DNA from: a virus
Lineage: Duplodnaviria > Heunggongvirae > Uroviricota > Caudoviricetes
Virus record (IMG/VR): IMGVR_UViG_2706794670_000014
Direction: 5' to 3' (one strand)
DNA: 39,161 bases
Part shown: piece by piece, positions 1-37,889 of the stretch
How positions within the stretch are numbered: position 1 is the stretch's first letter
Layout: each line of letters starts with the position of its first letter
Program-made: the position numbers and the translations under genes
The notes under the pieces: model-generated
Told to the model about the DNA's origin: nothing
Seen by the model: only the letters and a program-made list of their open reading frames with translations
Databases searched by the model: none

Positions 1-459
1 TTATTCAGTCGGCAGTGCTACGCGCCAGGGGAGCAGTTCGCCGACCCGGTTTATCGGCCAGTCGGCTATGACGTCAAGGACATAGCGGAGGTAGCTTTCT
101 GGCTCCACTCCGTTCAGTTTGCACGTCCCGATCAGGCTGTACAGCAGCGCTCCCCGCTCTCCTCCATGATCCGAACCGAAGAACAGGTAGTTTTTGCGGC
201 CCAGACTGACCATCCGCAACGCATTTTCAGCGATGTTATTGTCCGCCTCAGCCCAGCCATCATCTGCATAGTACGTCAGCGCCGGCCACTGGTTCAGGGC
301 ATATGCGAACGCTTTCGCCAGTTCTGAGTGTCGCGACAGGGTTTTCATCTTTTCACGCAGCCAGCTTTCCAGGGATTTCAGCAGCGGTTTCGTTTTCAAC
401 TGACGTTCGGCAAGGCGCTGTTTCAGCAGGAAGATGTCGTCAGAAGAGATGTCGTTCAT
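1..459 (-). mobile_element. IS66-family transposase (TnpC-like) gene, 3' fragment only, N-terminally truncated
   Basis: The 152-aa translation ends in motifs typical of IS66 transposase C-termini (LNQWPAL, DNNIAENALR, LGRKNYLF, NRVGELLPW). The in-frame sequence upstream of 460 loses the resemblance and hits a stop at 520-522. Confidence 0.7.
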
Positions 460-677: not shown

Positions 678-1415
678 TCATTCACTCTCTTTCAAACCAG
701 TTTTAACTGTTTGTGGTTTTGGGTAAGGCTGGACTTTGAATAGCTTTGTGTTAAGGCGTTTTCTGGCTCTCTTGTCCAGAAACCGGATGTAACGAAACTG
801 ACGGAATTTATGAACACTGGCTCTGTCGATATTAGCCCGCAGATGTTCACCTCGCTGTCCTCCTCGTTTGATTGCATTCTTGCAAATCTCGTGATACCAC
901 TCGCCATCAAGTTCATAGAATGTTGTTTCATGACTGCCTACATAATCAAAATTGCTTGCCTGGTACACGACACCAAGACAGCCACAACGCTCATCTGCAA
1001 ACGACTGAACCCACTGCACCTGCGGATAAAGTTGTCTGATTAGTTTGAGCGCGTAACTGATTGCCCTTGATTCGGAGTTTCTCGGCATACAGTCATGCAG
1101 CCATAACCGGTTAAGCTCCATATATTCGCGGTTCTGCGTGCCAGTTACGACGCGTGCACCATTGTTTGGATTAAGGGCATAACCCCATTGCATTACGCCA
1201 ACCAGCTCCCGTTCTGAAAATATGCCCAGATGAAGGTAGGAATTATTTACGAAACGATGGCTGTAATGTTTATTGACGACGACCAGCCGGGCCAGCCAGC
1301 AACTTATTGTCTCAACCCGTAACTCACGGGAGCCATAACCGACGATATTGTCGTTATAGTGAATAAGTTCAGGCGTGCTGATGATACGGGATGTAACTTG
1401 CTTTCTGTTCCCCAC
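678..1415 (-). CDS. mom: Mom-like DNA modification protein, assigned by position directly downstream of and overlapping com; start codon uncertain
   Basis: Long ORF 678..1610 in a different frame from com. Com's stop at 1369-1371 lies inside it, as in Mu where com overlaps the mom start. A GTG at 1415 preceded by AAGGAAA would give about 245 aa, close to the size I recall for Mu Mom. Confidence 0.55.
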
Positions 1416-1569
1416 GACAGGATTTCCTTGTGTATGTGGGGTGCTCTGTGGCGCTCTGAGATGTGATTTGATTGAGGGTTTTACAGCGCGGACATTTAAC
1501 TTCCAGATAACTGAAGCTGGCTCGTGCCAGTAGCTTGTTACAATGTCGGCACCGTATGTTTCGATACAT
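1369..1569 (-). CDS. com: Com-like zinc-finger translational activator of mom
   Basis: The translation from the ATG at 1569 contains [10 protein letters not shown]...EVKCPRCK, matching the Cys4 zinc-finger pattern of Mu Com. AGGAGG lies upstream. Confidence 0.75.
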
Positions 1570-1610
1570 GGCCGCATAACCTCCTGCTTTGTTGTTGATA
1601 TCTTTATCAC

Positions 1611-1705
1611 TCAATCGATCGACAAAAACGATCGATTTGATTTATTTAATTGATACAACAAATAACACGAAATGTCATTAGCGAAAATTTATGAGTTTGA
1701 TCACT
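1611..1705. promoter_or_regulatory. Putative Dam-methylation-sensitive control region upstream of com-mom (cluster of GATC sites in AT-rich DNA)
   Basis: GATC at 1617-1620, 1630-1633 and 1699-1702 within about 130 bp upstream of com. The Mu mom promoter is known to be controlled through clustered GATC sites. Confidence 0.4.
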
Positions 1706-1825
1706 AATTTTAAACGGTGCTGTAACGCATAAGTGCTGAATGATTGTACATTTGAATACCGCAAAGCAAACAAATCAACTAATTTATAGAAGTCAATTGG
1801 TTAATTGCCAGCGTAAGAGGCTGCT

Positions 1826-2119
1826 ATGGACAATCATGTAACGACGAGAAATCGAAAAATGATTGAAAATGCGGAAATCTATAATGATTATTTTTCCGAT
1901 TATTCAGATGCCTGCAAATACAGTTCGAGTGCGGGAGAGTTCATATGCTTCAACTTTTTTATTAAATCTTATGTTTTTCCTCCACAGCAAGAAGATGGAG
2001 GTGTGCCACCTCCTGAAATCACTTTGCACCGTATAGCCTCCGTCTCAATGATGGAGCAACAGGCTAATGAGCTGTATAGCATTCTGGGAACGATTCTACA
2101 AAAGCGTGAATCGGACTAA
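1826..2119 (+). CDS. Hypothetical 97-aa protein in an AT-rich region, oriented opposite to the lytic genes
   Basis: ATG at 1826 with AAGAGG six nt upstream. No similarity recognised. It diverges from com across an AT-rich spacer. Confidence 0.45.
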   Translation: MDNHVTTRNRKMIENAEIYNDYFSDYSDACKYSSSAGEFICFNFFIKSYVFPPQQEDGGVPPPEITLHRIASVSMMEQQANELYSILGTILQKRESD

Positions 2120-2286
2120 TGATACCGGTTCATTTGCCTGCCCGGATGGGGAAGCAGGATTGACTGCTCCATAAGCAGCTATATTTCTGAATACGAAATA
2201 CTATCCAGCGATTACATATGGCTGGATAGCGGCAAAGATGTTTTCATTAGTGTCAAACCGGCAGAGGACACCACCGGTTTGTATTG

Positions 2287-2541
2287 TTACATCATGGTAC
2301 TGTCAGTTCCGGGCTGAGCCGGGTCTGGTTGCTCTGGCTGCGCGTCGGTTTTCGGCTCATTATCAGCATCACTGGCCGCAACTGCTGGCCCAATAAGTTT
2401 TGCCAGCACTTCATCAACGTAAGTGTCGATTTGTGCCTCAAAATCCTTGCGGACCTGCGCTTTCAGCAACTTATTTACTTCACCGGAATACAGTGCCTGT
2501 TTTACCAGGTCTTCAGTGACGGTGCCTTTAATTTCTGGCAT
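2287..2541 (-). CDS. Hypothetical 84-aa protein with an acidic, Pro-rich C-terminus
   Basis: ATG at 2541 preceded by AAGGAGG at ideal spacing. Lies downstream of the esterase-like gene. Confidence 0.55.
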   Translation of the reverse strand: MPEIKGTVTEDLVKQALYSGEVNKLLKAQVRKDFEAQIDTYVDEVLAKLIGPAVAASDADNEPKTDAQPEQPDPAQPGTDSTMM

Positions 2542-2576
2542 GTATATCCTCCTTATGCGGGAATAAAGCCCTGCAA

Positions 2577-2759
2577 TCAGGGCTGGGTCGGGTCTTTTGG
2601 GAGCGGAGTTACCTGCGCTGTTTTACTGAGTTTTTCAGCTGCTGCGTCCTCAATTTTGCGGCGAACATAATTTCTGATGGCCTTATAACCACCACTCACC
2701 AGATATAACGCACATACTGCCGTGCAGAAATACAATAAAATAAGCTGTAAAAATGTCAT
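2577..2759 (-). CDS. Hypothetical 60-aa small membrane protein (one N-terminal transmembrane helix)
   Basis: ATG at 2759 preceded by GGGAGGG. Hydrophobic stretch FLQLILLYFCTAVCALYLV followed by a basic tail. The ORF track begins it at an upstream TTG. Confidence 0.5.
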   Translation of the reverse strand: MTFLQLILLYFCTAVCALYLVSGGYKAIRNYVRRKIEDAAAEKLSKTAQVTPLPKDPTQP

Positions 2760-2855
2760 TATCCCTCCCAATTATTGACATGGTGTTGACACCGGTAATA
2801 TCTGTTAGGTAAAAAGGTGCACTGCATTTTTTGCTTTGGATATAACGATCTTTTT

Positions 2856-2897
2856 GCCGCCGGTTTCTTGTTTTCCCTTACCGGCGGCATTTTTTTA
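2856..2897 (+). terminator. Rho-independent terminator-like hairpin with T-run on the plus strand
   Basis: GCCGCCGGT (2856-2864) / ACCGGCGGC (2880-2888) with a 15-nt loop, followed by ATTTTTTTA. The T-run is on the plus strand only. Confidence 0.55.
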
Positions 2898-2903
2898 TCC
2901 TGC

Positions 2904-4958
2904 TTACGCGTTATTCACTTCCACCACGATACTGTCAATCAGTACCGGGTAAGTCGCATTTTTAGTGATATCGGTCACGCGCAACTTGTCTGCCGTAAAC
3001 GTGCCGACCGGAGACTGCGACAGCATGAATGGTGTCCCGTCCTTACCATCAATGACCGGCGTCACCTCAATACTGTTGTTACCGGCAAAACGGAAGCCCA
3101 GCGTATGCCATTCGTTATTAAATGCGCCGAATGACCCCAGCTTCGTGTTCTGCGCCGTGTTTCCTTTGTGATACATCACGTTAAGGTCTGTGGCATCGCT
3201 CTGTACGTAGAACGATGCCAGCAGGTTATGACCGGCATTTCCTTCCAGAGTAACCCCTTGCGGCAGGGCAGAAACCGGCCAGTACAGCGCCAGTGCGTAC
3301 TGATTAGCCGTAAGCGCGCCATCGAGTTTAAAACGACAACTGACAAGACCACCTTTACCCAGCAGGTCCGCACCATTACCAGCATCATGCTCAAGGTACC
3401 AGGGGGCTCTTCCTGTTTCCTTGGTCAGTTTCATTGCCTTACCCCCGCTGGCTCCGGCATCATCCACGATTTGAGCCTTGCCACCTCCGGCAGCCCAACC
3501 CTGTGGTGTCAACCGTCCTTCAGACTCAGATGCCCGGTAAGCAAATAGCGTACTCATCGTCGTGGTGTCTGCGGGTGGCGTGGACGGTTTTGATGGTGTA
3601 TCAGGTGACGGCTTCTCATCCGGTGGTGTCACGGTCTGCCCACGCATCAGTTCAGCCGTGCGCCCTGCATGGAGCATAATAGCTGAGGCCAGACGGTCTG
3701 AAATGACGCCCCTGCGTGCCCATGAGCTGAAATGGCTGTCACGCTGTGTCGAAACAAAACTGCCCTGGGTTCGGGATGCTGCACCGTAATACCCGACAGC
3801 CACAATATCCGGGTCTTCCGCCGGAGCATTCGTTGGCGTGCTCTGTCCATTCTCATCCGTCAGGAACGGTACAAAGAAAATTTTCTGTGCTTCCTTGCCT
3901 TTGTAGCCACCGTATACTGCCTCATATTTATCGGTGCCAGCGTTTTTCCAGTAATACGTGGTATCACCGCAAATCCACGGCACCGTGGTGGCATTTCCAC
4001 TCACGCACTGCGCAGCAAGCGGAGCCAGGTCAGTTCTGAACTGCTGAACCATGGCCGTGAATAAACTATTATGCTGCTGGCTTCCTGAGGCAAGGTCTGC
4101 CTCTCCCTGCATCCAGACCACAGCCAGAAGTTTGTTTTTCGGGTTTTTCGCCAGCGCGACTTTGGTGCGGCTTACCAGGTCCTGATACAGAGGTTTACCG
4201 GCCCCCCAGCGTGAAGAATCAGCGGAAGCACCGCTGGCCTCACTGAATGAGCCGTCGGCTCCAGTGGTGAATGCTGACCCGCCACGACAACAGGGCACCA
4301 GAAGTATCCCGGCATTCTGTGGGATATAGGGAAGCAGTTTTTTGGCAATATGCAACCCCTGACCGACAGTCCCGTACTGGCCTTTTGCCAGATCAGCTTT
4401 CGGGTGGTTTATCCCGCTCATATCCTGAACATCATGCAGGCAGTGGTCTGCCGGAATGATGTCGTTGTATGTACACGACGTACCGTTGGGCGTTACCGTA
4501 CTGCGGCGTGCCAGTTGCTTAATGCGTGGGTCCGGGCGGTCAAACGAATCCGGTAACGGCAGCCCCTCGCCGTAGGCCATGCCATTTGACTGACCCGCGA
4601 GAATGACAACAAAGTAATATTCCGGCTCTGAACTGCTGCCATTCGTGCTACCGGAAGGCCCGGCGTTATCCGGTGCATTCCAGTCGGAGGGCGTGAGCGT
4701 TCCGGCCACGTCAGATGTGATTGGAATGATGCCAGTCACGCCTGAACTGGTGATTTCTGCACTGGGATTACCGGATACCGGCATTACCCATAATGGCTCT
4801 TTCGTGCTGAAGCGGATCACGCAGTCTGCGAAGGTGATCCCCCCTTTATTACCCGAAGGGCGGAAAGGGCTTTCAATAAATGCCACCGTGCCACCGGCAA
4901 CCTTGACTGAAAACTCTCCGGGCATGGCGGAGAGCATTTTCCACTTGGAGTCTGACAT
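2904..4958 (-). CDS. 684-aa protein with a sialate O-acetylesterase (SASA / SGNH hydrolase) domain, resembling prophage NanS-p-type esterases; likely cargo
   Basis: Conserved blocks VVILAGQSNGMAYGEG and VVWMQGEADLA match the catalytic-serine and second signature blocks of the SASA family. Long N- and C-terminal extensions. Sits between gin and com-mom, where Mu has no gene. Confidence 0.65.
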   Translation of the reverse strand: MSDSKWKMLSAMPGEFSVKVAGGTVAFIESPFRPSGNKGGITFADCVIRFSTKEPLWVMPVSGNPSAEITSSGVTGIIPITSDVAGTLTPSDWNAPDNAGPSGSTNGSSSEPEYYFVVILAGQSNGMAYGEGLPLPDSFDRPDPRIKQLARRSTVTPNGTSCTYNDIIPADHCLHDVQDMSGINHPKADLAKGQYGTVGQGLHIAKKLLPYIPQNAGILLVPCCRGGSAFTTGADGSFSEASGASADSSRWGAGKPLYQDLVSRTKVALAKNPKNKLLAVVWMQGEADLASGSQQHNSLFTAMVQQFRTDLAPLAAQCVSGNATTVPWICGDTTYYWKNAGTDKYEAVYGGYKGKEAQKIFFVPFLTDENGQSTPTNAPAEDPDIVAVGYYGAASRTQGSFVSTQRDSHFSSWARRGVISDRLASAIMLHAGRTAELMRGQTVTPPDEKPSPDTPSKPSTPPADTTTMSTLFAYRASESEGRLTPQGWAAGGGKAQIVDDAGASGGKAMKLTKETGRAPWYLEHDAGNGADLLGKGGLVSCRFKLDGALTANQYALALYWPVSALPQGVTLEGNAGHNLLASFYVQSDATDLNVMYHKGNTAQNTKLGSFGAFNNEWHTLGFRFAGNNSIEVTPVIDGKDGTPFMLSQSPVGTFTADKLRVTDITKNATYPVLIDSIVVEVNNA

Positions 4959-5032
4959 CGTCTTTTCTGCCTGTTTCTGAATTAAACAGAGTCAGAATAG
5001 CGACCGCTGAAAAATATGTGTTTTGCGGAAAT

Positions 5033-5063
5033 TCAAAAAAGCGTCACGGTACTTTTGGTGACG
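5033..5063 (-). terminator. Rho-independent terminator at the 3' end of gin
   Basis: On the minus strand: stem CGTCAC / GTGACG with a 10-nt loop, followed by CTTTTTTG. Confidence 0.55.
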
Positions 5064-5616
5064 GAGCTGGTGAGGCAGGAAAATAACGATAAAGGGTGGA
5101 AAGGCCAATATCAAATATCAGTGCGATTTGTTTACGGGACTCGCCATTAGCCAGCAAACGGGCGATTTGCTCCCGCTCTTTCTCTGTCAGTTTCTGAGGT
5201 CTGCCGCCATGACGCCCCTGAGCACGGGCAGCAGCAAGACCCGCGCGTGTACGTTCAATAATGAGTTCCCGCTCCATTTCCGCCAGCGCGCCCATTATAT
5301 GGAAAAAGAAACGTCCCATGGGAGTGGATGTATCAATATTGTCCGTAATGCTGCGGAAGTTAACGCCGCGTTGCCGGAGTTCTTCTGTTAAAAGGACAAG
5401 GTGCTGCATACTGCGTCCAAGGCGATCCAGTTTCCAGACCAGCAGGGTATCCCCTGGCCGGAGTCGCTTTAATGCGCGTTTAAGTCCGGGACGCTCCCTT
5501 GTCTTACCGCTTATTCTGTCTTCGAAAAACAGCTCACATCCTGCACATTCCAGCGCATTTCTTTGTAGCGCCGTATTCTGGTCATTTGTTGACACCCTGA
5601 TATACCCAATCAGCAT
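5044..5616 (-). CDS. gin: Serine DNA invertase of the Gin/Hin/Pin family
   Basis: N-terminus MLIGYIRVSTNDQ with the catalytic serine context, resolvase-like core and a C-terminal HTH. Adjacent to the tail-fibre invertible segment. Confidence 0.9.
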   Translation of the reverse strand: MLIGYIRVSTNDQNTALQRNALECAGCELFFEDRISGKTRERPGLKRALKRLRPGDTLLVWKLDRLGRSMQHLVLLTEELRQRGVNFRSITDNIDTSTPMGRFFFHIMGALAEMERELIIERTRAGLAAARAQGRHGGRPQKLTEKEREQIARLLANGESRKQIALIFDIGLSTLYRYFPASPAPSPKVP

Positions 5617-5652
5617 ACGATTTCCTTATTATAAAAAGCCGGAATTGTCGCA

Positions 5653-6045
5653 TGAGGAATAAAACAGAGTTAATCCTGGCTTTCCTGAAAACCTCGGTTT
5701 ACGGGAAACGGTAAACAGGGCGGCGAATGCTCTGCCATCGGACGGCACCGCCGTTGCCGCGAATAGACTCGCCACCCCAAGAAATATTAATGGGGTTCCC
5801 TTTGACGGGACGCAGGACATAAACATCACTTCTGGTATAACACAGCAGGATGCGGATTCCCGATATATCCAGGATATCAGGCTGGGAGCAGAGAACAGGC
5901 AGGTAATGTACGGTGGGGCATATTACTCTGCGTACGGTAATGTTATGGCAGGCCTGCAGATTGACAGTAAAGTTGATGCTTCAAACGATTTTATAGCATT
6001 CAGACCCCTGCAAAAATTAGTCGGAGGTACATGGATTACGGTATC
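5653..6045 (+). CDS. Startless alternative tail-fibre C-terminal cassette (S'v-like), expressed only after inversion
   Basis: Open frame from the stop at 5650-5652 to TAA at 6043-6045 with no start codon near its 5' end. It encodes tail-fibre-like motifs (ANRLATPRNINGVPFDGTQDINITSG) and begins at the gix site. Confidence 0.6.
5672..5697. other. gix/hix-like recombination site (crossover site for the invertase)
   Basis: TTCCTGAAAACC-TC-GGTTTACGGGAA: two 12-bp inverted half-sites around a 2-bp core, very similar to the gix/hix consensus. Located at the start of the startless fibre cassette next to gin. Confidence 0.7.
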
Positions 6046-28545: not shown

Positions 28546-29046
28546 TCAGACTTTCGGCAAATCGTAACGACATAACCATTCATCCGCCGAACGGCGGGCC
28601 TCAAGACCGGGGAGTTTTACCCCCTTTGAATAAATCCAGCGGATATACTGCTTACAGGACGCGGGCATCTGCCCGGCATTGATAAGGCGCAGGAGCGTGG
28701 AGTTGCGAAAGTTCGTTTCACCGGCCCAGAAAATCCAGGAGGCCAGCGCCACCGTCTGACCACGGGTAAGCGGCACCTGAACATGACGATCGATAGCCGC
28801 AAAGGCCCATTTCATGTCCTTTTCCAGCAGCTCCAGACACTCTTCATCAGTTTTTGTCATCCCCGGTTTCACATCCGGGCCGGTATGGCCGTAACAGATG
28901 GTGGGGGTGCCGGTGGGATCAATGTACGTGGTGTTTTCTTTCCCTTCCCAGTAGCCGGTGTAGTGCGTGGCAATGGTGAACGTCCCGGCTCCGGCCAGAA
29001 CAAGGGCAATCAGCTTTTTACGCAGGGGTGCGGGGAGTTTTGGCAT
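28546..29046 (-). CDS. SAR endolysin (lysozyme with an N-terminal signal-arrest-release domain)
   Basis: N-terminal hydrophobic LIALVLAGAGTFTIA followed by a lysozyme-like catalytic region (YIDPTGTPTICYGHT). Confidence 0.8.
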   Translation of the reverse strand: MPKLPAPLRKKLIALVLAGAGTFTIATHYTGYWEGKENTTYIDPTGTPTICYGHTGPDVKPGMTKTDEECLELLEKDMKWAFAAIDRHVQVPLTRGQTVALASWIFWAGETNFRNSTLLRLINAGQMPASCKQYIRWIYSKGVKLPGLEARRSADEWLCRYDLPKV

Positions 29047-35801: not shown

Positions 35802-37889
35802 TCAGGCCAGCGGATCACTTTCTTTTAATTTCGCTTCGAGCAGTTGCAATCCCCGCTGGAAATTACGCTCGTATTCTTCATCAGGTTCATCGTCAGCGAC
35901 CGGTTGCTGAACGGTCACCGTATTACCCACAGGGCGGTATATGTTTTCCAGCCAGGGCTCCTGCGGCTTGTGCTCCAGCACGTTGACAACCTCATCCTCG
36001 GCATCACGGATTTTTTCCTCTGCGCGTTTACGCATGCCTTTAAGGCGCTGCTGCTGTTTGTAGTATTCCGCGCTGACAGGGAAGGCTTCGCGTTTATTGC
36101 CGTCCCATACCGCCTCGCAAATCACGCTGCCATCCGGGCGGCGCACGGTAATTCGTTCGGCATCATGAATGTCATAGCTGATAAGTACCTTACGGCCATG
36201 CTCGTCACGCAGCTCGGGCGCGTAGTAAATATTATTCAGCCAGCGTATTTCACAGCGTCTTACAGGGCGCTCCACCATCGGCCGGAACATATCCCGCAGT
36301 TCAACATCGGACAGCCATTCAATTTCCGTGTCCTCTTCCGCCAGGCGTTTTTTTCTGAACTCCGCCGGGCTGTAATGTTTACCGTTCGGCTTCATGGGTA
36401 ATTCATCGTGCGGCCGGTTGTTGTACCACTCAACACCGTCACGAATGGCATCAATCAGTTCAGACCAGGACGGTAAATCACGCATCGCTGACTGCTGCCG
36501 GGCGTTCAGCCGTTTGCCCTGTTGCAGGGCACTGAATGCCGAGCGTAAATCGCGGTTGGTTTTACGTAACGTCTCGCGATCTGCTCCTTTCCCGAAATAG
36601 GTGCGGTATTTACGGGCTATGCGCATCGGTAATGTGCGGTTAAGCCGTTCGATAATGCCCCGTCCCTGCGGATTACCGGCAATCCCTGTCGGGTGATTAA
36701 TCCCCAGTCGTGGCAGTATCCCCACAATCTCCTTATCCAGGACGTCGGCGGTTTCCCCGGAGCCATTATCCGAGTAATACAGAAACGGTTTGCCATGATG
36801 GCGAATACCGTGCTGTATGGCACCGGCTACGGCGAAAACATTTTCAGCCAGGTCAAGGCTCCAGCCCACCACAAAGCGCGTGCCACCGTCGATAACAAAG
36901 GTCACTTCCGGTGCGAATGGCCGCCCGTGAACCGGGTGCGCGCATTTCAGCTTCATGCCGTGACCGTCACCAATCCAGACATAATTCACCGGCATTCTGG
37001 ACCAGTCGCGGCGCGTGAATCCCTCAAGCTGACGGTATTCACTGCCAGTTACCCGGCCTTTTTGTTTCACCACTTCCGGCAGTTTCTTCATTGCGCGGCG
37101 AATGGTGTCATAAGAGGGCATGATATCGAGCATATAAGGCTCATCAGCGTGCCGGTGCTGCCATTCAGCAACAAAATCCTCGTAAGCCTCGGTCATTGGT
37201 CGGCCGTTTGACTGGCGATACTGCGCCAGAAATTCGGGCAGCCAGTTAATATCTTCGGCTTTTATTTCCTGGCGTTTACCCGGTGCCAGTAAAAGCAGGC
37301 GTTCAGCGGCGTTCTGTGCCTTGTTAAAGGCCGCAATCCAGCGTTTCAGCGTGATTTCACTCAACGCGCGGCTGTTTCCCTTTTTGGCGTTCGCCGTCTC
37401 AACCATTGCCACAATGCGCTCGTCCAGTTGTGATCGTGCCAGGCTGTTAACGAGGAACCGGATAGCTTTAGCGCAGCTGAAACCGGGTTGTTGCGTGAAT
37501 TTCAGCACCTCACTGACGATCGCAATGCGTGCGTCTGCCACCTGGCGCTGGTTTTCAGTCAGGGCATTGAGGCGTTCGACCATCAGTTGTGGTGATCCGC
37601 GATATGCCTCCACCGCATCAACCACGGCAGACGAGCGTCTGGCCTTTGTCACCACCGGAGCCGGTGATTCATCGGCTTTTTGCGTCATCAGTTGCAGGGC
37701 ATAACGTTCGCGTAATGCCTGCTGTGTCACTTCAGGTAAACAGTCAATGCTGTATTCAAAACCTTTAGCGCCTTTCTTGCGGCGTCTGCTGGTTTCGCTG
37801 GTTGCATACTTCCTGATTGAATAGCGAACGCCTTGCTCCGTTCCCGGCATCCCCGGTAATCCAACCAGTTCTTTAACTGAAGCAAACAT
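35802..37889 (-). CDS. A: Mu A-like DDE transposase
   Basis: 695 aa with an N-terminal winged-helix-like region, a DDE core of Mu-transposase type and an acidic C-terminus. Followed by B. Confidence 0.9.
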   Translation of the reverse strand: MFASVKELVGLPGMPGTEQGVRYSIRKYATSETSRRRKKGAKGFEYSIDCLPEVTQQALRERYALQLMTQKADESPAPVVTKARRSSAVVDAVEAYRGSPQLMVERLNALTENQRQVADARIAIVSEVLKFTQQPGFSCAKAIRFLVNSLARSQLDERIVAMVETANAKKGNSRALSEITLKRWIAAFNKAQNAAERLLLLAPGKRQEIKAEDINWLPEFLAQYRQSNGRPMTEAYEDFVAEWQHRHADEPYMLDIMPSYDTIRRAMKKLPEVVKQKGRVTGSEYRQLEGFTRRDWSRMPVNYVWIGDGHGMKLKCAHPVHGRPFAPEVTFVIDGGTRFVVGWSLDLAENVFAVAGAIQHGIRHHGKPFLYYSDNGSGETADVLDKEIVGILPRLGINHPTGIAGNPQGRGIIERLNRTLPMRIARKYRTYFGKGADRETLRKTNRDLRSAFSALQQGKRLNARQQSAMRDLPSWSELIDAIRDGVEWYNNRPHDELPMKPNGKHYSPAEFRKKRLAEEDTEIEWLSDVELRDMFRPMVERPVRRCEIRWLNNIYYAPELRDEHGRKVLISYDIHDAERITVRRPDGSVICEAVWDGNKREAFPVSAEYYKQQQRLKGMRKRAEEKIRDAEDEVVNVLEHKPQEPWLENIYRPVGNTVTVQQPVADDEPDEEYERNFQRGLQLLEAKLKESDPLA

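What the first reader, a model, noticed from the sequence alone, without database searches (positions are those of the whole stretch)
2287..2771. Pair of small genes with strong ribosome-binding sites downstream of the esterase gene
A 60-aa single-pass membrane protein (RBS GGGAGGG) and an 84-aa protein with an acidic, Pro-rich tail (RBS AAGGAGG) follow the esterase gene on the minus strand. Both have near-consensus Shine-Dalgarno sequences, so they are probably translated. Neither matches a Mu gene I know. They could be an export or accessory pair for the esterase, or an independent small-protein module.
Basis: inference. Interest (0 to 1): 0.5.

Follow-up and report, generated by a model that had tools for sequence, protein, structure and literature searches.

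The report
Two small genes trailing a phage esterase
The two small reading frames are real, conserved phage genes from two catalogued families of unknown function (DUF1378, a tiny membrane protein, and DUF826, a small acidic helical protein); they nearly always sit behind a NanS-p sialic-acid esterase gene, here in a Mu-like prophage, and nobody has tested what they do.

Summary
Window 2577-2759(-) encodes a 60-aa Pfam DUF1378 protein (E 9e-32). Window 2287-2541(-) encodes an 84-aa DUF826 protein (E 6e-16).

Both are under purifying selection (dN/dS about 0.1-0.5) and are intact in all 35 related loci inspected. RefSeq already annotates them, so the families are known but uncharacterised.

With the upstream NanS-p-type esterase they form a block: esterase, DUF1378, DUF826, hairpin. 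The same block occurs in lambdoid Stx prophages, between stx/tRNA genes and the holin, and in Mu-like prophages, between gin and com/mom.

In the phage collection, 347 records carry the esterase, 309 carry DUF1378 and 307 carry DUF826. About 11% of esterase phages lack the pair (phage 434, the EPEC PasA/PasC loci), so it is dispensable.

A short DUF826 subfamily sits beside a different putative glycan-enzyme cassette in two gene orders.

My best reading, at low confidence, is a membrane-tethered accessory pair of phage glycan-enzyme cassettes. A dedicated export function has no support.

In passing, a PasC-like antisense sRNA candidate lies between the esterase and DUF1378.

The parts
2577..2759 (-). 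CDS of a 60-aa DUF1378 family protein (stop codon included). It has an N-terminal transmembrane helix, a basic cytoplasmic helix and a short Pro-rich tail.
   Evidence: Pfam PF07125 at E 9.4e-32 and PHROG 494. AlphaFold2 gives a single helix over residues 2-49. dN/dS is 0.09-0.30. RefSeq annotates the identical CDS as WP_000143468.1.
2763..2769 (-). Shine-Dalgarno sequence GGGAGGG of the DUF1378 gene, three nt before the ATG.
   Evidence: Read directly from the sequence. SD-like purine runs occupy the same place in 10 diverged loci.
2287..2541 (-). CDS of an 84-aa DUF826 family protein. It has a conserved N-terminal two-helix domain (about residues 1-52) and an acidic, Pro-rich disordered tail ending in MM.
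   Evidence: Pfam PF05696 at E 6.4e-16 and PHROG 311. AlphaFold2 gives helices 10-17 and 20-50 with block-mean pLDDT 81-96 over residues 11-50; residues 55-84 are below 50 except position 72. dN/dS is 0.14-0.54. RefSeq annotates the identical CDS as WP_001114100.1.
2548..2554 (-). Shine-Dalgarno sequence AAGGAGG of the DUF826 gene, six nt before the ATG.
   Evidence: Read directly from the sequence.
2904..4958 (-). First gene of the block: a 684-aa NanS-p-type sialate O-acetylesterase. It has a lineage-specific N-terminal domain of about 100 aa, an SGNH/SASA catalytic domain and a C-terminal DUF6645 lectin-like domain.
   Evidence: Pfam SASA and DUF6645. PDB 3PT5 NanS at E 2e-117 and 6YP6 NanS-p at E 7e-98. 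Residues 98-684 are about 89-91% identical to lambdoid prophage esterases.
2254..2281 (-). Hairpin (CAAACCGG, 12-nt loop, CCGGTTTG) directly after the DUF826 stop codon. It probably marks the end of the three-gene unit and faces the convergent plus-strand ORF 1826-2119.
   Evidence: Read from the sequence. The same position in Mu-like locus L024 has a hairpin with a different, still complementary stem (AAACCGACAG/CTGTCGGTTT) followed by GATTTTC. That it terminates transcription is an inference.
2786..2898 (+). Candidate antisense small RNA in the esterase-DUF1378 spacer. It has a -35 TTGACA (2786-2791), an 18-nt spacer, a -10-like TAAAAA (2810-2815), and a strong intrinsic terminator (10-bp GC stem 2855-2889, then U7 at 2891-2897) that ends 7 nt from the esterase stop codon.
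   Evidence: The 83-nt stretch 2816-2898(+) folds at -25.6 kcal/mol, z = -4.1. The A-run plus hairpin and the TTGAC-N17/18-TA(A/G)AAA motif recur in 9 diverged loci with different but complementary stems. The architecture and position match the experimentally detected sRNAs PasC and PasA of EPEC (PMC8550237 Table S6). Rfam gives only a weak Esr41 hit (E 0.53). Expression was not tested.

Best explanation
Shown:
- Both ORFs are genuine protein-coding phage genes.
- The 60-aa product is a DUF1378 protein. It forms one long helix whose first ~24 residues span the inner membrane. Only one or two residues lie outside. A conserved basic helix (GGYK.IRNY.R.KID.AA.EK) and a short variable tail lie in the cytoplasm.
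- The 84-aa product is a DUF826 protein. It is soluble and acidic, with a conserved ~50-residue two-helix domain and a variable, disordered, acidic Pro-rich tail ending in two hydrophobic residues.
- They are the two distal genes of a three-gene block (NanS-p-type esterase, DUF1378, DUF826, hairpin). This block is conserved as a unit in lambdoid Stx-type prophages and in Mu-like prophages.

Inferred:
- The three genes are co-transcribed, because the only terminator between them points the other way.
- The two small proteins act as a pair. DUF1378 holds DUF826 at the cytoplasmic face of the inner membrane.
- The pair is a dispensable accessory of phage-borne glycan-modifying enzyme cassettes. 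It may govern where or when the signal-less enzyme is held or handed over late in infection.
- It is not an export machine and not part of catalysis.
For: The genes are real:
- Pfam and PHROG memberships, dN/dS below 1, and conserved SD sites and start codons.

Fold and topology:
- Hydropathy and charge; AlphaFold2 models.

The block is a unit:
- The order esterase, DUF1378, DUF826 is the same in all 35 loci that hold the pair. Lambdoid copies sit next to two different holin families, PF04971 and PF16080. Mu-like copies sit between gin and com/mom at many chromosomal insertion sites.
- No sense-strand terminator separates the genes. A hairpin follows DUF826.

Co-occurrence:
- DUF1378 is found in 309 phage records and DUF826 in 307, with near-identical organism breakdown. 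Both counts fit inside the 347 esterase records.
- The same holin family occurs without the pair in most of the E. coli genome records sampled (34 of 60 rows match only the holin part of the query).

The two proteins behave as a pair:
- Their variable tails change together. In L014- and L038-type loci both tails become long and Ser/Thr/Ala-rich.

The link is to enzyme cassettes rather than to lysis genes:
- A short DUF826 subfamily (PHROG 311, E 9e-26) sits next to a different putative glycan-enzyme cassette. That cassette holds an MptE-like protein that PHROG 4603 labels 'alpha-2,3-sialyltransferase', a 287-aa protein and a methyltransferase.
- This subfamily occurs in two different gene orders. 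In one it directly follows Rz. In the other it lies five genes (about 2.7 kb) downstream of Rz.
- In the Mu-like window the pair lies about 26 kb from the lysozyme gene.
Against: - No experiment or structure bears on either family.
- About 11% of esterase-carrying phage records, including the classical phage 434, lack the pair. The esterase therefore does not need it.
- The esterase body does not co-vary with the pair. The window's esterase residues 98-684 are about 89-91% identical to those of loci L018-L023, yet DUF1378 is only 58% identical and DUF826 about 39%. That argues against a tight, specific protein contact.
- Linkage could simply reflect neighbours moving together within a hot spot for accessory genes.
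- DUF1378 was seen only in the esterase context. The enzyme-cassette argument therefore rests on DUF826 alone and on few independent loci.
- The PHROG label 'sialyltransferase' is an annotation, not a tested function, and the Pfam MptE-like hit is below its cut-off.
- Interaction between the two small proteins was not tested. A multimer prediction was not possible with these tools.
Confidence: 0.4

Rival explanations
1. Lysis accessory, working like a holin/antiholin pair. DUF1378 would be a small membrane-active protein with a charged cytoplasmic C-terminus. DUF826 would be its cytoplasmic regulator, in the manner of T4 RIII. Together they would tune membrane depolarisation, and so the release of SAR endolysins and the timing of lysis and of toxin or esterase release.
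For: - DUF1378 meets the generic sequence criteria for holins: small, one transmembrane helix, a highly charged C-terminus and late-operon position.
- In all lambdoid loci the pair lies immediately upstream of the holin gene.
- A short DUF826 homologue directly follows Rz/Rz1 in Salmonella-type prophages, and Fels-1 holds a remnant at that position.
- The lambdoid hosts of the pair and this Mu-like phage all carry PF00959 lysozymes. The window's lysozyme has a hydrophobic, SAR-like N-terminus.
- An antisense sRNA promoter at the esterase/DUF1378 boundary would fit silencing of a harmful membrane protein in lysogens.
Against: - In the window the pair is about 26 kb from the lysozyme gene and has no holin beside it.
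- Phage 434 and many prophages carry the same pinholin and SAR endolysin without the pair.
- The pair accompanies two unrelated holin families.
- In L049 the DUF826 homologue lies five genes away from the lysis genes but next to the enzyme cassette.
- Neither protein matched a holin or antiholin family in the Pfam scan.
Confidence: 0.2
2. Independent accessory genes that merely ride next to the esterase. The conserved transmembrane helix of DUF1378 would bind a host membrane protein. The benefit could be exclusion of superinfecting phages, interference with a defence system, or a change in host physiology, with DUF826 as cofactor.
For: - The transmembrane segment has many invariant polar and aromatic residues (L9 Y10 F11 T13 V15 L18 Y19 L20 S22 G23 G24 Y25). 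This is typical of a specific helix-helix contact rather than a passive anchor.
- The tails are fast-evolving.
- The esterase body recombines independently of the pair.
- In strain VR50 the pair is intact while the esterase is frameshifted.
- The Q-to-S interval of lambdoid phages and the gin-to-mom interval of Mu-like phages are both places where accessory genes accumulate.
Against: - No full-length pair without an adjacent esterase was found in 35 loci.
- Phage-record counts for the pair fit as a subset of the esterase counts.
- No convincing hit to a known defence or anti-defence family; the only PADLOC match is a weak one to PbeC for DUF826 (E 0.0076, 12.9 bits).
- In lambdoid phages the genes lie in the late operon, with no sense-strand promoter detected in front of them. 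Expression in the lysogen, which exclusion would need, is therefore doubtful.
Confidence: 0.2
3. DUF1378 is a small membrane toxin of the type I toxin-antitoxin kind, kept silent by the antisense sRNA encoded just upstream. DUF826 would be a bystander or modulator.
For: - DUF1378 is a 60-aa hydrophobic protein.
- A conserved antisense promoter-like motif and a strong terminator lie in its mRNA leader.
- Positional counterparts of that antisense RNA, PasA and PasC, are real Hfq-bound sRNAs (PMC8550237).
Against: - The predicted sRNA would pair 50-140 nt upstream of the start codon and does not cover the ribosome-binding site.
- PasA and PasC exist at loci that have no DUF1378 gene, and they act in trans on many targets (PMC8550237).
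- Some Mu-like loci (L024, L028) have the pair but no such hairpin.
- DUF1378 always comes with DUF826 and with a long polycistronic context, unlike typical type I loci.
Confidence: 0.07
4. The two ORFs are chance open frames or non-coding spacer.
For: Short ORFs are frequent in this window.
Against: - Pfam and PHROG hits with E values down to 1e-32.
- dN/dS well below 1 at saturating synonymous divergence.
- Conserved starts and SD sites.
- Hundreds of intact homologues.
Confidence: 0.01

Closest known systems
DUF1378 (PF07125, PHROG 494) and DUF826 (PF05696, PHROG 311) genes between nanS-p and the holin gene S of Stx phages such as 933W, Sakai Sp5 and phi24B relatives
   Same: They belong to the same two protein families, in the same order directly behind a NanS-p-type esterase, with the same spacer features (A-run plus hairpin). 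Function is equally unknown. The literature only mentions that such DUF ORFs exist there (PMC10462455).
   Different: - The backbone here is a Mu-like transposable prophage. The block lies between gin and com/mom and ends in a hairpin instead of running into a holin gene.
- The proteins are diverged. DUF1378 is 53% identical to the 933W copy and 58-68% to other lambdoid copies. DUF826 is about 40% identical and is not found by tblastn at E 1e-3.
- The esterase has a different N-terminal domain.
Holin/antiholin and co-antiholin systems (phage 21 S21 68/71; T4 T, RI and the small cytoplasmic RIII)
   Same: A small bitopic membrane protein with a charged cytoplasmic end is paired with a small helical cytoplasmic protein. 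Both are expressed late and, in lambdoid relatives, lie next to the lysis genes. The comparison with RIII rests on my own knowledge.
   Different: There is no sequence or fold match. In this window the pair is not next to an endolysin. Phages with the same lysis genes work without the pair. Hole formation or lysis inhibition has not been tested.
Colicin operons (colicin, immunity protein, lysis/release lipoprotein)
   Same: A large signal-less enzyme gene is followed by a small acidic helical protein gene and a small membrane protein gene. This rests on my own knowledge.
   Different: DUF1378 has no lipobox or signal peptide. DUF826 does not co-vary with the esterase as immunity proteins do with their colicins. 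The gene order differs.
PasA/PasC prophage sRNAs of EPEC (EcOnc51/52 in EHEC)
   Same: This concerns the spacer, not the proteins. These are antisense-oriented sRNA genes whose terminators abut the esterase stop codon or lie about 150 nt beyond it, with a TTGACA -35 box in the same relative place.
   Different: There is no significant sequence similarity outside the terminator architecture. PasA and PasC loci lack DUF1378 and DUF826. Expression of the window's candidate is untested.

Membership tests
Pfam DUF1378 (PF07125) | Profile score above the gathering threshold (25 bits) over the whole ~59-residue model | tested here: met
   109.4 bits, E 9.4e-32, residues 1-58 on model positions 1-58 of 59. 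Also PHROG 494 at E 1.3e-32.
Pfam DUF826 (PF05696) | Profile score above the gathering threshold (25 bits) | tested here: met
   58.7 bits, E 6.4e-16, residues 1-57 on model positions 1-58 of 75. Also PHROG 311 at E 4.9e-28.
NanS-p esterase cassette of Stx/lambdoid prophages | Esterase with SASA catalytic domain and NanS-p C-terminal domain directly upstream of the pair | tested here: met
   Pfam SASA and DUF6645. PDB 3PT5 at E 2e-117 and 6YP6 at E 7e-98.
NanS-p esterase cassette of Stx/lambdoid prophages | N-terminal DUF1737 capsid-binding domain on the esterase, and a position between Q/stx and the holin | tested here: not met
   The first 110 residues have no Pfam hit, and the full-length scan found only SASA and DUF6645. 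Mu-like copies share a different conserved N-terminal module. The backbone is Mu-like, and the block lies between gin and com/mom.
Holins (functional class) | Small protein with at least one transmembrane helix and a highly charged hydrophilic C-terminus | tested here: met
   60 aa, transmembrane helix at 3-24, 8 K/R and 4 D/E in residues 26-60, helix 2-49.
Holins (functional class) | Gene adjacent to the endolysin gene | tested here: not met
   The window's lysozyme gene is at 28546-29046, about 26 kb away. In lambdoid relatives a canonical holin gene lies between the pair and the lysozyme.
Holins (functional class) | Lethal membrane lesion on expression; releases or activates endolysin | not testable with these tools
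   Needs expression experiments.
Type I toxin-antitoxin loci | Small hydrophobic toxin ORF together with a cis-encoded antisense RNA that pairs with the toxin mRNA | tested here: inconclusive
   The ORF fits. An antisense promoter-like motif and a terminator lie in the leader. The predicted RNA does not cover the RBS. Similar sRNAs exist without the ORF. Toxicity is untested.
Secreted or lipoprotein release factors (colicin lysis-protein type) | Signal peptide with a positively charged n-region, or a lipobox L-(A/S)-(G/A)-C | tested here: not met
   The N-terminus is MTF followed directly by the hydrophobic stretch. The residues before C12 and C16 (LYF, TAV) do not fit a lipobox (sequence).
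Known anti-phage defence systems (PADLOC) | Profile match to a defence protein family | tested here: not met
   No hit for DUF1378. DUF826 has only a 12.9-bit match to PbeC (E 0.0076).
PasA/PasC or Esr41 sRNA families (for the spacer) | Sequence or covariance-model match at family threshold | tested here: not met
   Esr41 scores 22 bits against a gathering score of 102, E 0.53. No blastn match to PasA or PasC. Only position, orientation, promoter boxes and terminator architecture agree.

The most novel reading that the evidence does not exclude
DUF826 proteins, together with DUF1378 in the esterase lineage, would be a dedicated small-subunit class for phage-borne sialic-acid or glycan-modifying enzyme cassettes. 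They would hold or release the enzyme at the inner membrane late in infection. In Stx phages the pair would then co-determine when and how NanS-p, and with it Shiga toxin, leaves the cell. In lysogens a PasC-like cis-antisense sRNA would keep the pair silent.
Probability: 0.12. Interest if true: 0.6.

Novelty: already known. Interest (0 to 1): 0.3.

Why it matters
These two genes sit between the Shiga toxin genes and the lysis genes in more than 300 sequenced Stx phages, and in many Mu-like prophages of E. coli. No function has been assigned to either family.

If they modulate the esterase, which in phi24B is a capsid decoration, or the timing of lysis, they would bear on toxin and enzyme release and on how these phages deal with mucus glycans.

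As it stands, the finding adds three things to two catalogued but uncharacterised families:
- a context, the Mu-like backbone;
- co-occurrence figures;
- a recurrent link of DUF826 to putative glycan-enzyme cassettes.

Tried and rejected
- **Remote homology for DUF826.** An HMM search of 1.84 billion representatives found only 55 clusters, all DUF826 itself. It gave no link to a characterised family.
- **Structure.** The AlphaFold2 models are simple helices. Foldseek against PDB and viral models gave nothing below E 4. PDB sequence searches gave nothing.
- **Pseudo-complex prediction.** I tried to use a natural frameshift fusion (P0148) as a stand-in for a DUF1378-DUF826 complex. I dropped it because MAFFT stacked the DUF1378 sequences onto the DUF826 half.
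- **Literature.** Only one paper mentions the two DUFs, in a single sentence. A search by locus tags returned unrelated papers.
- **Esr41 identity of the spacer.** Rejected. The score is far below threshold, and Esr41 is encoded in SpLE1, not at this position.
- **Sense-strand promoter in front of DUF1378.** The conserved boxes read much better on the antisense strand. The scan tool found no sense-strand promoter in the spacer upstream of the ATG; its only minus-strand hit near here (2759-2732) starts at the ATG itself.
- **Esterase immunity or inhibitor role for DUF826.** Judged unlikely because the esterase body and DUF826 do not co-vary.
- **Similarity of the esterase N-terminal domain to other proteins of this prophage.** None found.
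- **NCBIfam and PADLOC.** No informative hits.
Full report
**1. The observation**

The minus strand carries two short ORFs directly behind a 684-aa ORF (2904-4958).
- The first runs 2577-2759 (ATG start, 60 aa). GGGAGGG lies three nt before the ATG.
- The second runs 2287-2541 (84 aa). AAGGAGG lies six nt before the ATG.
- The finding's end coordinate of 2771 corresponds to an upstream TTG. All homologues begin at MTF, so the ATG at 2759 is the start.

- The 60-aa protein has an uncharged first 25 residues (Kyte-Doolittle 2.27 over residues 3-21) and then 6 K/R in the next 20. This is a single-pass membrane protein with the N-terminus out.
- The 84-aa protein has pI 4.2 and a tail with 7 D/E and 5 P in 32 residues.

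**2. They are real genes of known families**

- The 60-aa protein matches Pfam DUF1378 (109 bits, E 9e-32) and PHROG 494.
- The 84-aa protein matches Pfam DUF826 (58.7 bits, E 6e-16) and PHROG 311. Both PHROGs are listed as 'unknown function'.
- The stretch 2200-2960 is 100% identical in 14 complete E. coli genomes, where RefSeq annotates exactly these CDSs.
- Against diverged homologues, dN/dS is 0.09-0.30 for DUF1378 and 0.14-0.54 for DUF826 at high synonymous divergence.
- SD-like sequences and start codons are conserved.
- Both families are small and confined to Escherichia, Shigella and Citrobacter prophages. A Salmonella branch is inferred from a Fels-1 remnant. A profile search of 1.84 billion representative proteins returned only 55 DUF826 clusters.

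**3. Anatomy of the proteins**

- DUF1378 is predicted as one continuous helix over residues 2-49.
- Its membrane part carries many invariant residues (L9 Y10 F11 T13 V15 L18 Y19 L20 S22 G23 G24 Y25). A conserved basic segment follows (R29, I36, A40, E42, K43), then a variable tail.
- DUF826 has helices 10-17 and 20-50 at block-mean pLDDT 81-96 over residues 11-50. Its tail (residues 55-84) scores below 50 apart from one position.
- Only the N-terminal ~52 residues of DUF826 are conserved. The tail varies from absent to more than 100 residues. In the main subfamily it is acidic and Pro-rich and usually ends in two hydrophobic residues (MM, LL, ML).
- In L014- and L038-type loci both proteins' tails become long and Ser/Thr/Ala-rich together.
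- Neither protein has a solved or structurally similar relative.

**4. Context in the window**

The window is a Mu-like prophage read on the minus strand. It holds:
- Mu transposase (35802-37889), GemA and a lysozyme (28546-29046);
- tail genes, a Gin-type invertase (5044-5616) and Com/Mom (678-1614);
- an IS66 fragment at 1-459.

The 684-aa protein is a NanS-p-type sialate O-acetylesterase. Its catalytic domain matches NanS (PDB 3PT5, E 2e-117). Its C-terminal domain matches NanS-p (6YP6, E 7e-98).

The block of esterase, DUF1378 and DUF826 lies between gin and com/mom, where phage Mu has nothing (own knowledge). A hairpin follows at 2254-2281, facing a convergent plus-strand ORF. Mu-like locus L024 has a hairpin with a different complementary stem at the same place.

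The only terminator between the esterase and DUF1378 points the other way. I therefore infer that the three genes are co-transcribed.

**5. Related loci**

- The same order of esterase, DUF1378 and DUF826 is found in lambdoid Stx-type prophages. There it lies between the stx or tRNA genes and the holin gene, next to two different holin families.
- It is also found in many Mu-like prophages inserted at different chromosomal sites.
- The 933W record merges part of this region into one 148-aa ORF. This looks like an old annotation artefact.
- In all 35 loci that hold the pair, both small genes are intact and follow an esterase (and the calls above). In strain VR50 the esterase is frameshifted while the pair is intact.
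- In the phage collection, 347 records carry the esterase catalytic domain, 309 carry DUF1378 and 307 carry DUF826, with near-identical organism breakdown.
- So the two small genes co-occur almost one to one. The counts fit the pair being a subset of the esterase phages, about 89% of them.

The remaining esterase loci have a non-coding spacer of about 70-450 nt instead of the pair. These are phage 434, EPEC E2348/69 PP2 and PP5, E. albertii and Escherichia sp.. The pair is therefore dispensable for the esterase and for lysis. The P21-type holin occurs without the pair in most of the genome records sampled (34 of 60 rows).

The block is mosaic. The window's esterase residues 98-684 are about 89-91% identical to lambdoid esterases of L018-L023, yet DUF1378 is 58% identical and DUF826 about 39%.

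**6. A wider link for DUF826**

A short-tailed DUF826 subfamily (PHROG 311, E 9e-26) occurs in Salmonella-type lambdoid prophages without an esterase or DUF1378.
- In L044-L047 it directly follows Rz/Rz1. It precedes an MptE-like protein (PHROG 4603, annotated 'alpha-2,3-sialyltransferase'), a 287-aa protein, a methyltransferase and a PHROG 'minor tail' protein.
- In L049 the same enzyme cassette (55% identical MptE-like protein) comes first. DUF826 follows the methyltransferase, five genes away from Rz.
- One further short contig has a DUF826 gene convergent with a family-25 glycosyltransferase gene.
- Fels-1 keeps a truncated remnant after Rz.

The neighbour that stays constant is therefore a putative glycan-modifying enzyme set rather than the lysis genes. 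The sample is small, and the enzyme labels are annotations.

**7. What is known from the literature**

- The two DUFs are mentioned once, as ORFs seen between nanS-p and S (PMC10462455).
- NanS-p of phi24B (gp84) was recently reported to be a capsid-decorating protein. It is anchored through its N-terminal DUF1737 domain and processed after release (bioRxiv 10.64898/2026.04.10.717836).
- The window's esterase lacks DUF1737. It has a different N-terminal module of about 95 residues that all Mu-like copies share. By analogy this could be a docking module for a Mu-like virion, but that is an inference.

**8. How it most likely works**

- Shown: there are two translated-looking, selected genes. 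One encodes a bitopic membrane helix and the other a soluble acidic helical protein. They are co-inherited almost perfectly with each other and with a NanS-p-type esterase, in two phage backbones.
- Inferred: the three genes are co-transcribed and the two proteins act as a pair, with DUF1378 tethering DUF826 at the inner face of the membrane. The pair is a non-essential accessory of phage glycan-enzyme cassettes. I put about 0.4 on this general reading and much less on any specific step.

Rivals:
- A lysis-timing pair working like a holin and antiholin (0.2). The generic holin-like features of DUF1378 and the position next to lysis genes favour it. The Mu-like context, phage 434 and L049 count against it.
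- An independent accessory pair acting on a host membrane target (0.2).
- A type I toxin-like ORF under antisense control (0.07).
- Chance ORFs (0.01).

A dedicated export apparatus for the esterase has no support.

**9. By-product: an antisense sRNA candidate**

On the plus strand, antisense to the genes, the spacer between the esterase and DUF1378 carries three elements:
- TTGACA at 2786-2791;
- TAAAAA at 2810-2815, 18 nt further on;
- a 10-bp GC stem followed by U7 (2855-2897) that ends 7 nt from the esterase stop codon.

The 83-nt stretch folds with z = -4.1. The A-run plus hairpin and the TTGAC-N17/18-TA(A/G)AAA boxes recur in nine diverged loci with different but complementary stems.

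Position, orientation and architecture match PasC and PasA. These are Hfq-dependent sRNAs detected in EPEC between the esterase and holin genes (PMC8550237 Table S6; bioRxiv 10.64898/2026.05.13.724894). Sequence similarity is absent, and Rfam gives only a sub-threshold Esr41 hit.

**10. Verdict**

They belong to catalogued families that have never been characterised, and the exact proteins are already in RefSeq. The feature is therefore already known as an object, with its function open.

Interest is modest. What is new is the Mu-like context, the co-occurrence figures, the recurrent DUF826 link to putative glycan enzymes, and the PasC-like antisense candidate.

Noticed in passing
window 2786-2898 (+): A candidate antisense small RNA lies in the esterase-DUF1378 spacer. 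It has TTGACA, an 18-nt spacer, TAAAAA, and a strong terminator (10-bp GC stem plus U7) abutting the esterase stop codon. Position and architecture match the EPEC sRNAs PasC and PasA, without sequence similarity. Rfam gives only a weak Esr41 hit (E 0.53).
   Followed up: partly
window 4629-4958 (-), esterase residues 1-110: The esterase lacks the DUF1737 domain, which anchors phi24B NanS-p to the capsid. Instead it has a ~95-residue N-terminal module with no Pfam hit, shared by all Mu-like copies (L004, L024-L028). It may be a docking module for Mu-like virions.
   Followed up: partly
L044-L047 and L049 (Salmonella-type lambdoid prophages): A late-region cassette holds an MptE-like protein (PHROG 4603, labelled 'alpha-2,3-sialyltransferase'), a 287-aa protein (PHROG 6804) and a methyltransferase. 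In L046 a PHROG 'minor tail' protein follows these. The cassette lies between the spanin and terminase genes and comes with a short DUF826 gene in two different orders. It might modify glycans or virion proteins. Its function is unknown.
   Followed up: partly
window 1826-2119 (+): A 97-aa ORF lies convergent to the esterase block, between DUF826 and com. RefSeq annotates an 86-aa hypothetical protein here (WP_000571916.1). It has no Pfam, PHROG, PADLOC or NCBIfam hit.
   Followed up: partly
window 678-1614 (-): These are Com/Mom homologues (Pfam Mom, E 1.6e-77). The Mom frame is open from a GTG at 1610 (310 aa) and overlaps the Com-like ORF 1369-1614. RefSeq marks com as frameshifted in a genome that is identical over window 2200-2960.
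   Followed up: no
window 1-459 (-): The C-terminal part of an IS66-family transposase lies just beyond the Mom end of the prophage. In strain JE86-ST05, whose esterase-DUF1378-DUF826 stretch is identical, the flank is ybfB/rhsC instead. The window therefore appears to come from a different insertion site or a rearranged copy.
   Followed up: no
L002, L003, L005, L014, L018 (lambdoid loci), about 200 nt upstream of the esterase gene: The sRNA STnc100 (related to PasD) lies upstream of the esterase in all five lambdoid loci that had Rfam hits. AsxR or AgvB lies beside it in two of them. An E-value search of window 1500-5700 returned none of these. The sequence shared between the Mu-like and lambdoid backbones therefore starts inside the esterase gene, after the N-terminal domain.
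   Followed up: partly
L003 (phage 933W, NC_000924 25307-25753): The reference annotation has one 148-aa 'hypothetical protein' (ST933Wp43). It begins inside the DUF1378 gene in another frame and ends at the DUF826 stop. The DUF1378 gene itself is not annotated. Gene callers produce similar 138-aa forms in other loci.
   Followed up: partly
L039 (E. coli VR50): The esterase gene is frameshifted, while DUF1378 and DUF826 behind it remain intact.
   Followed up: no
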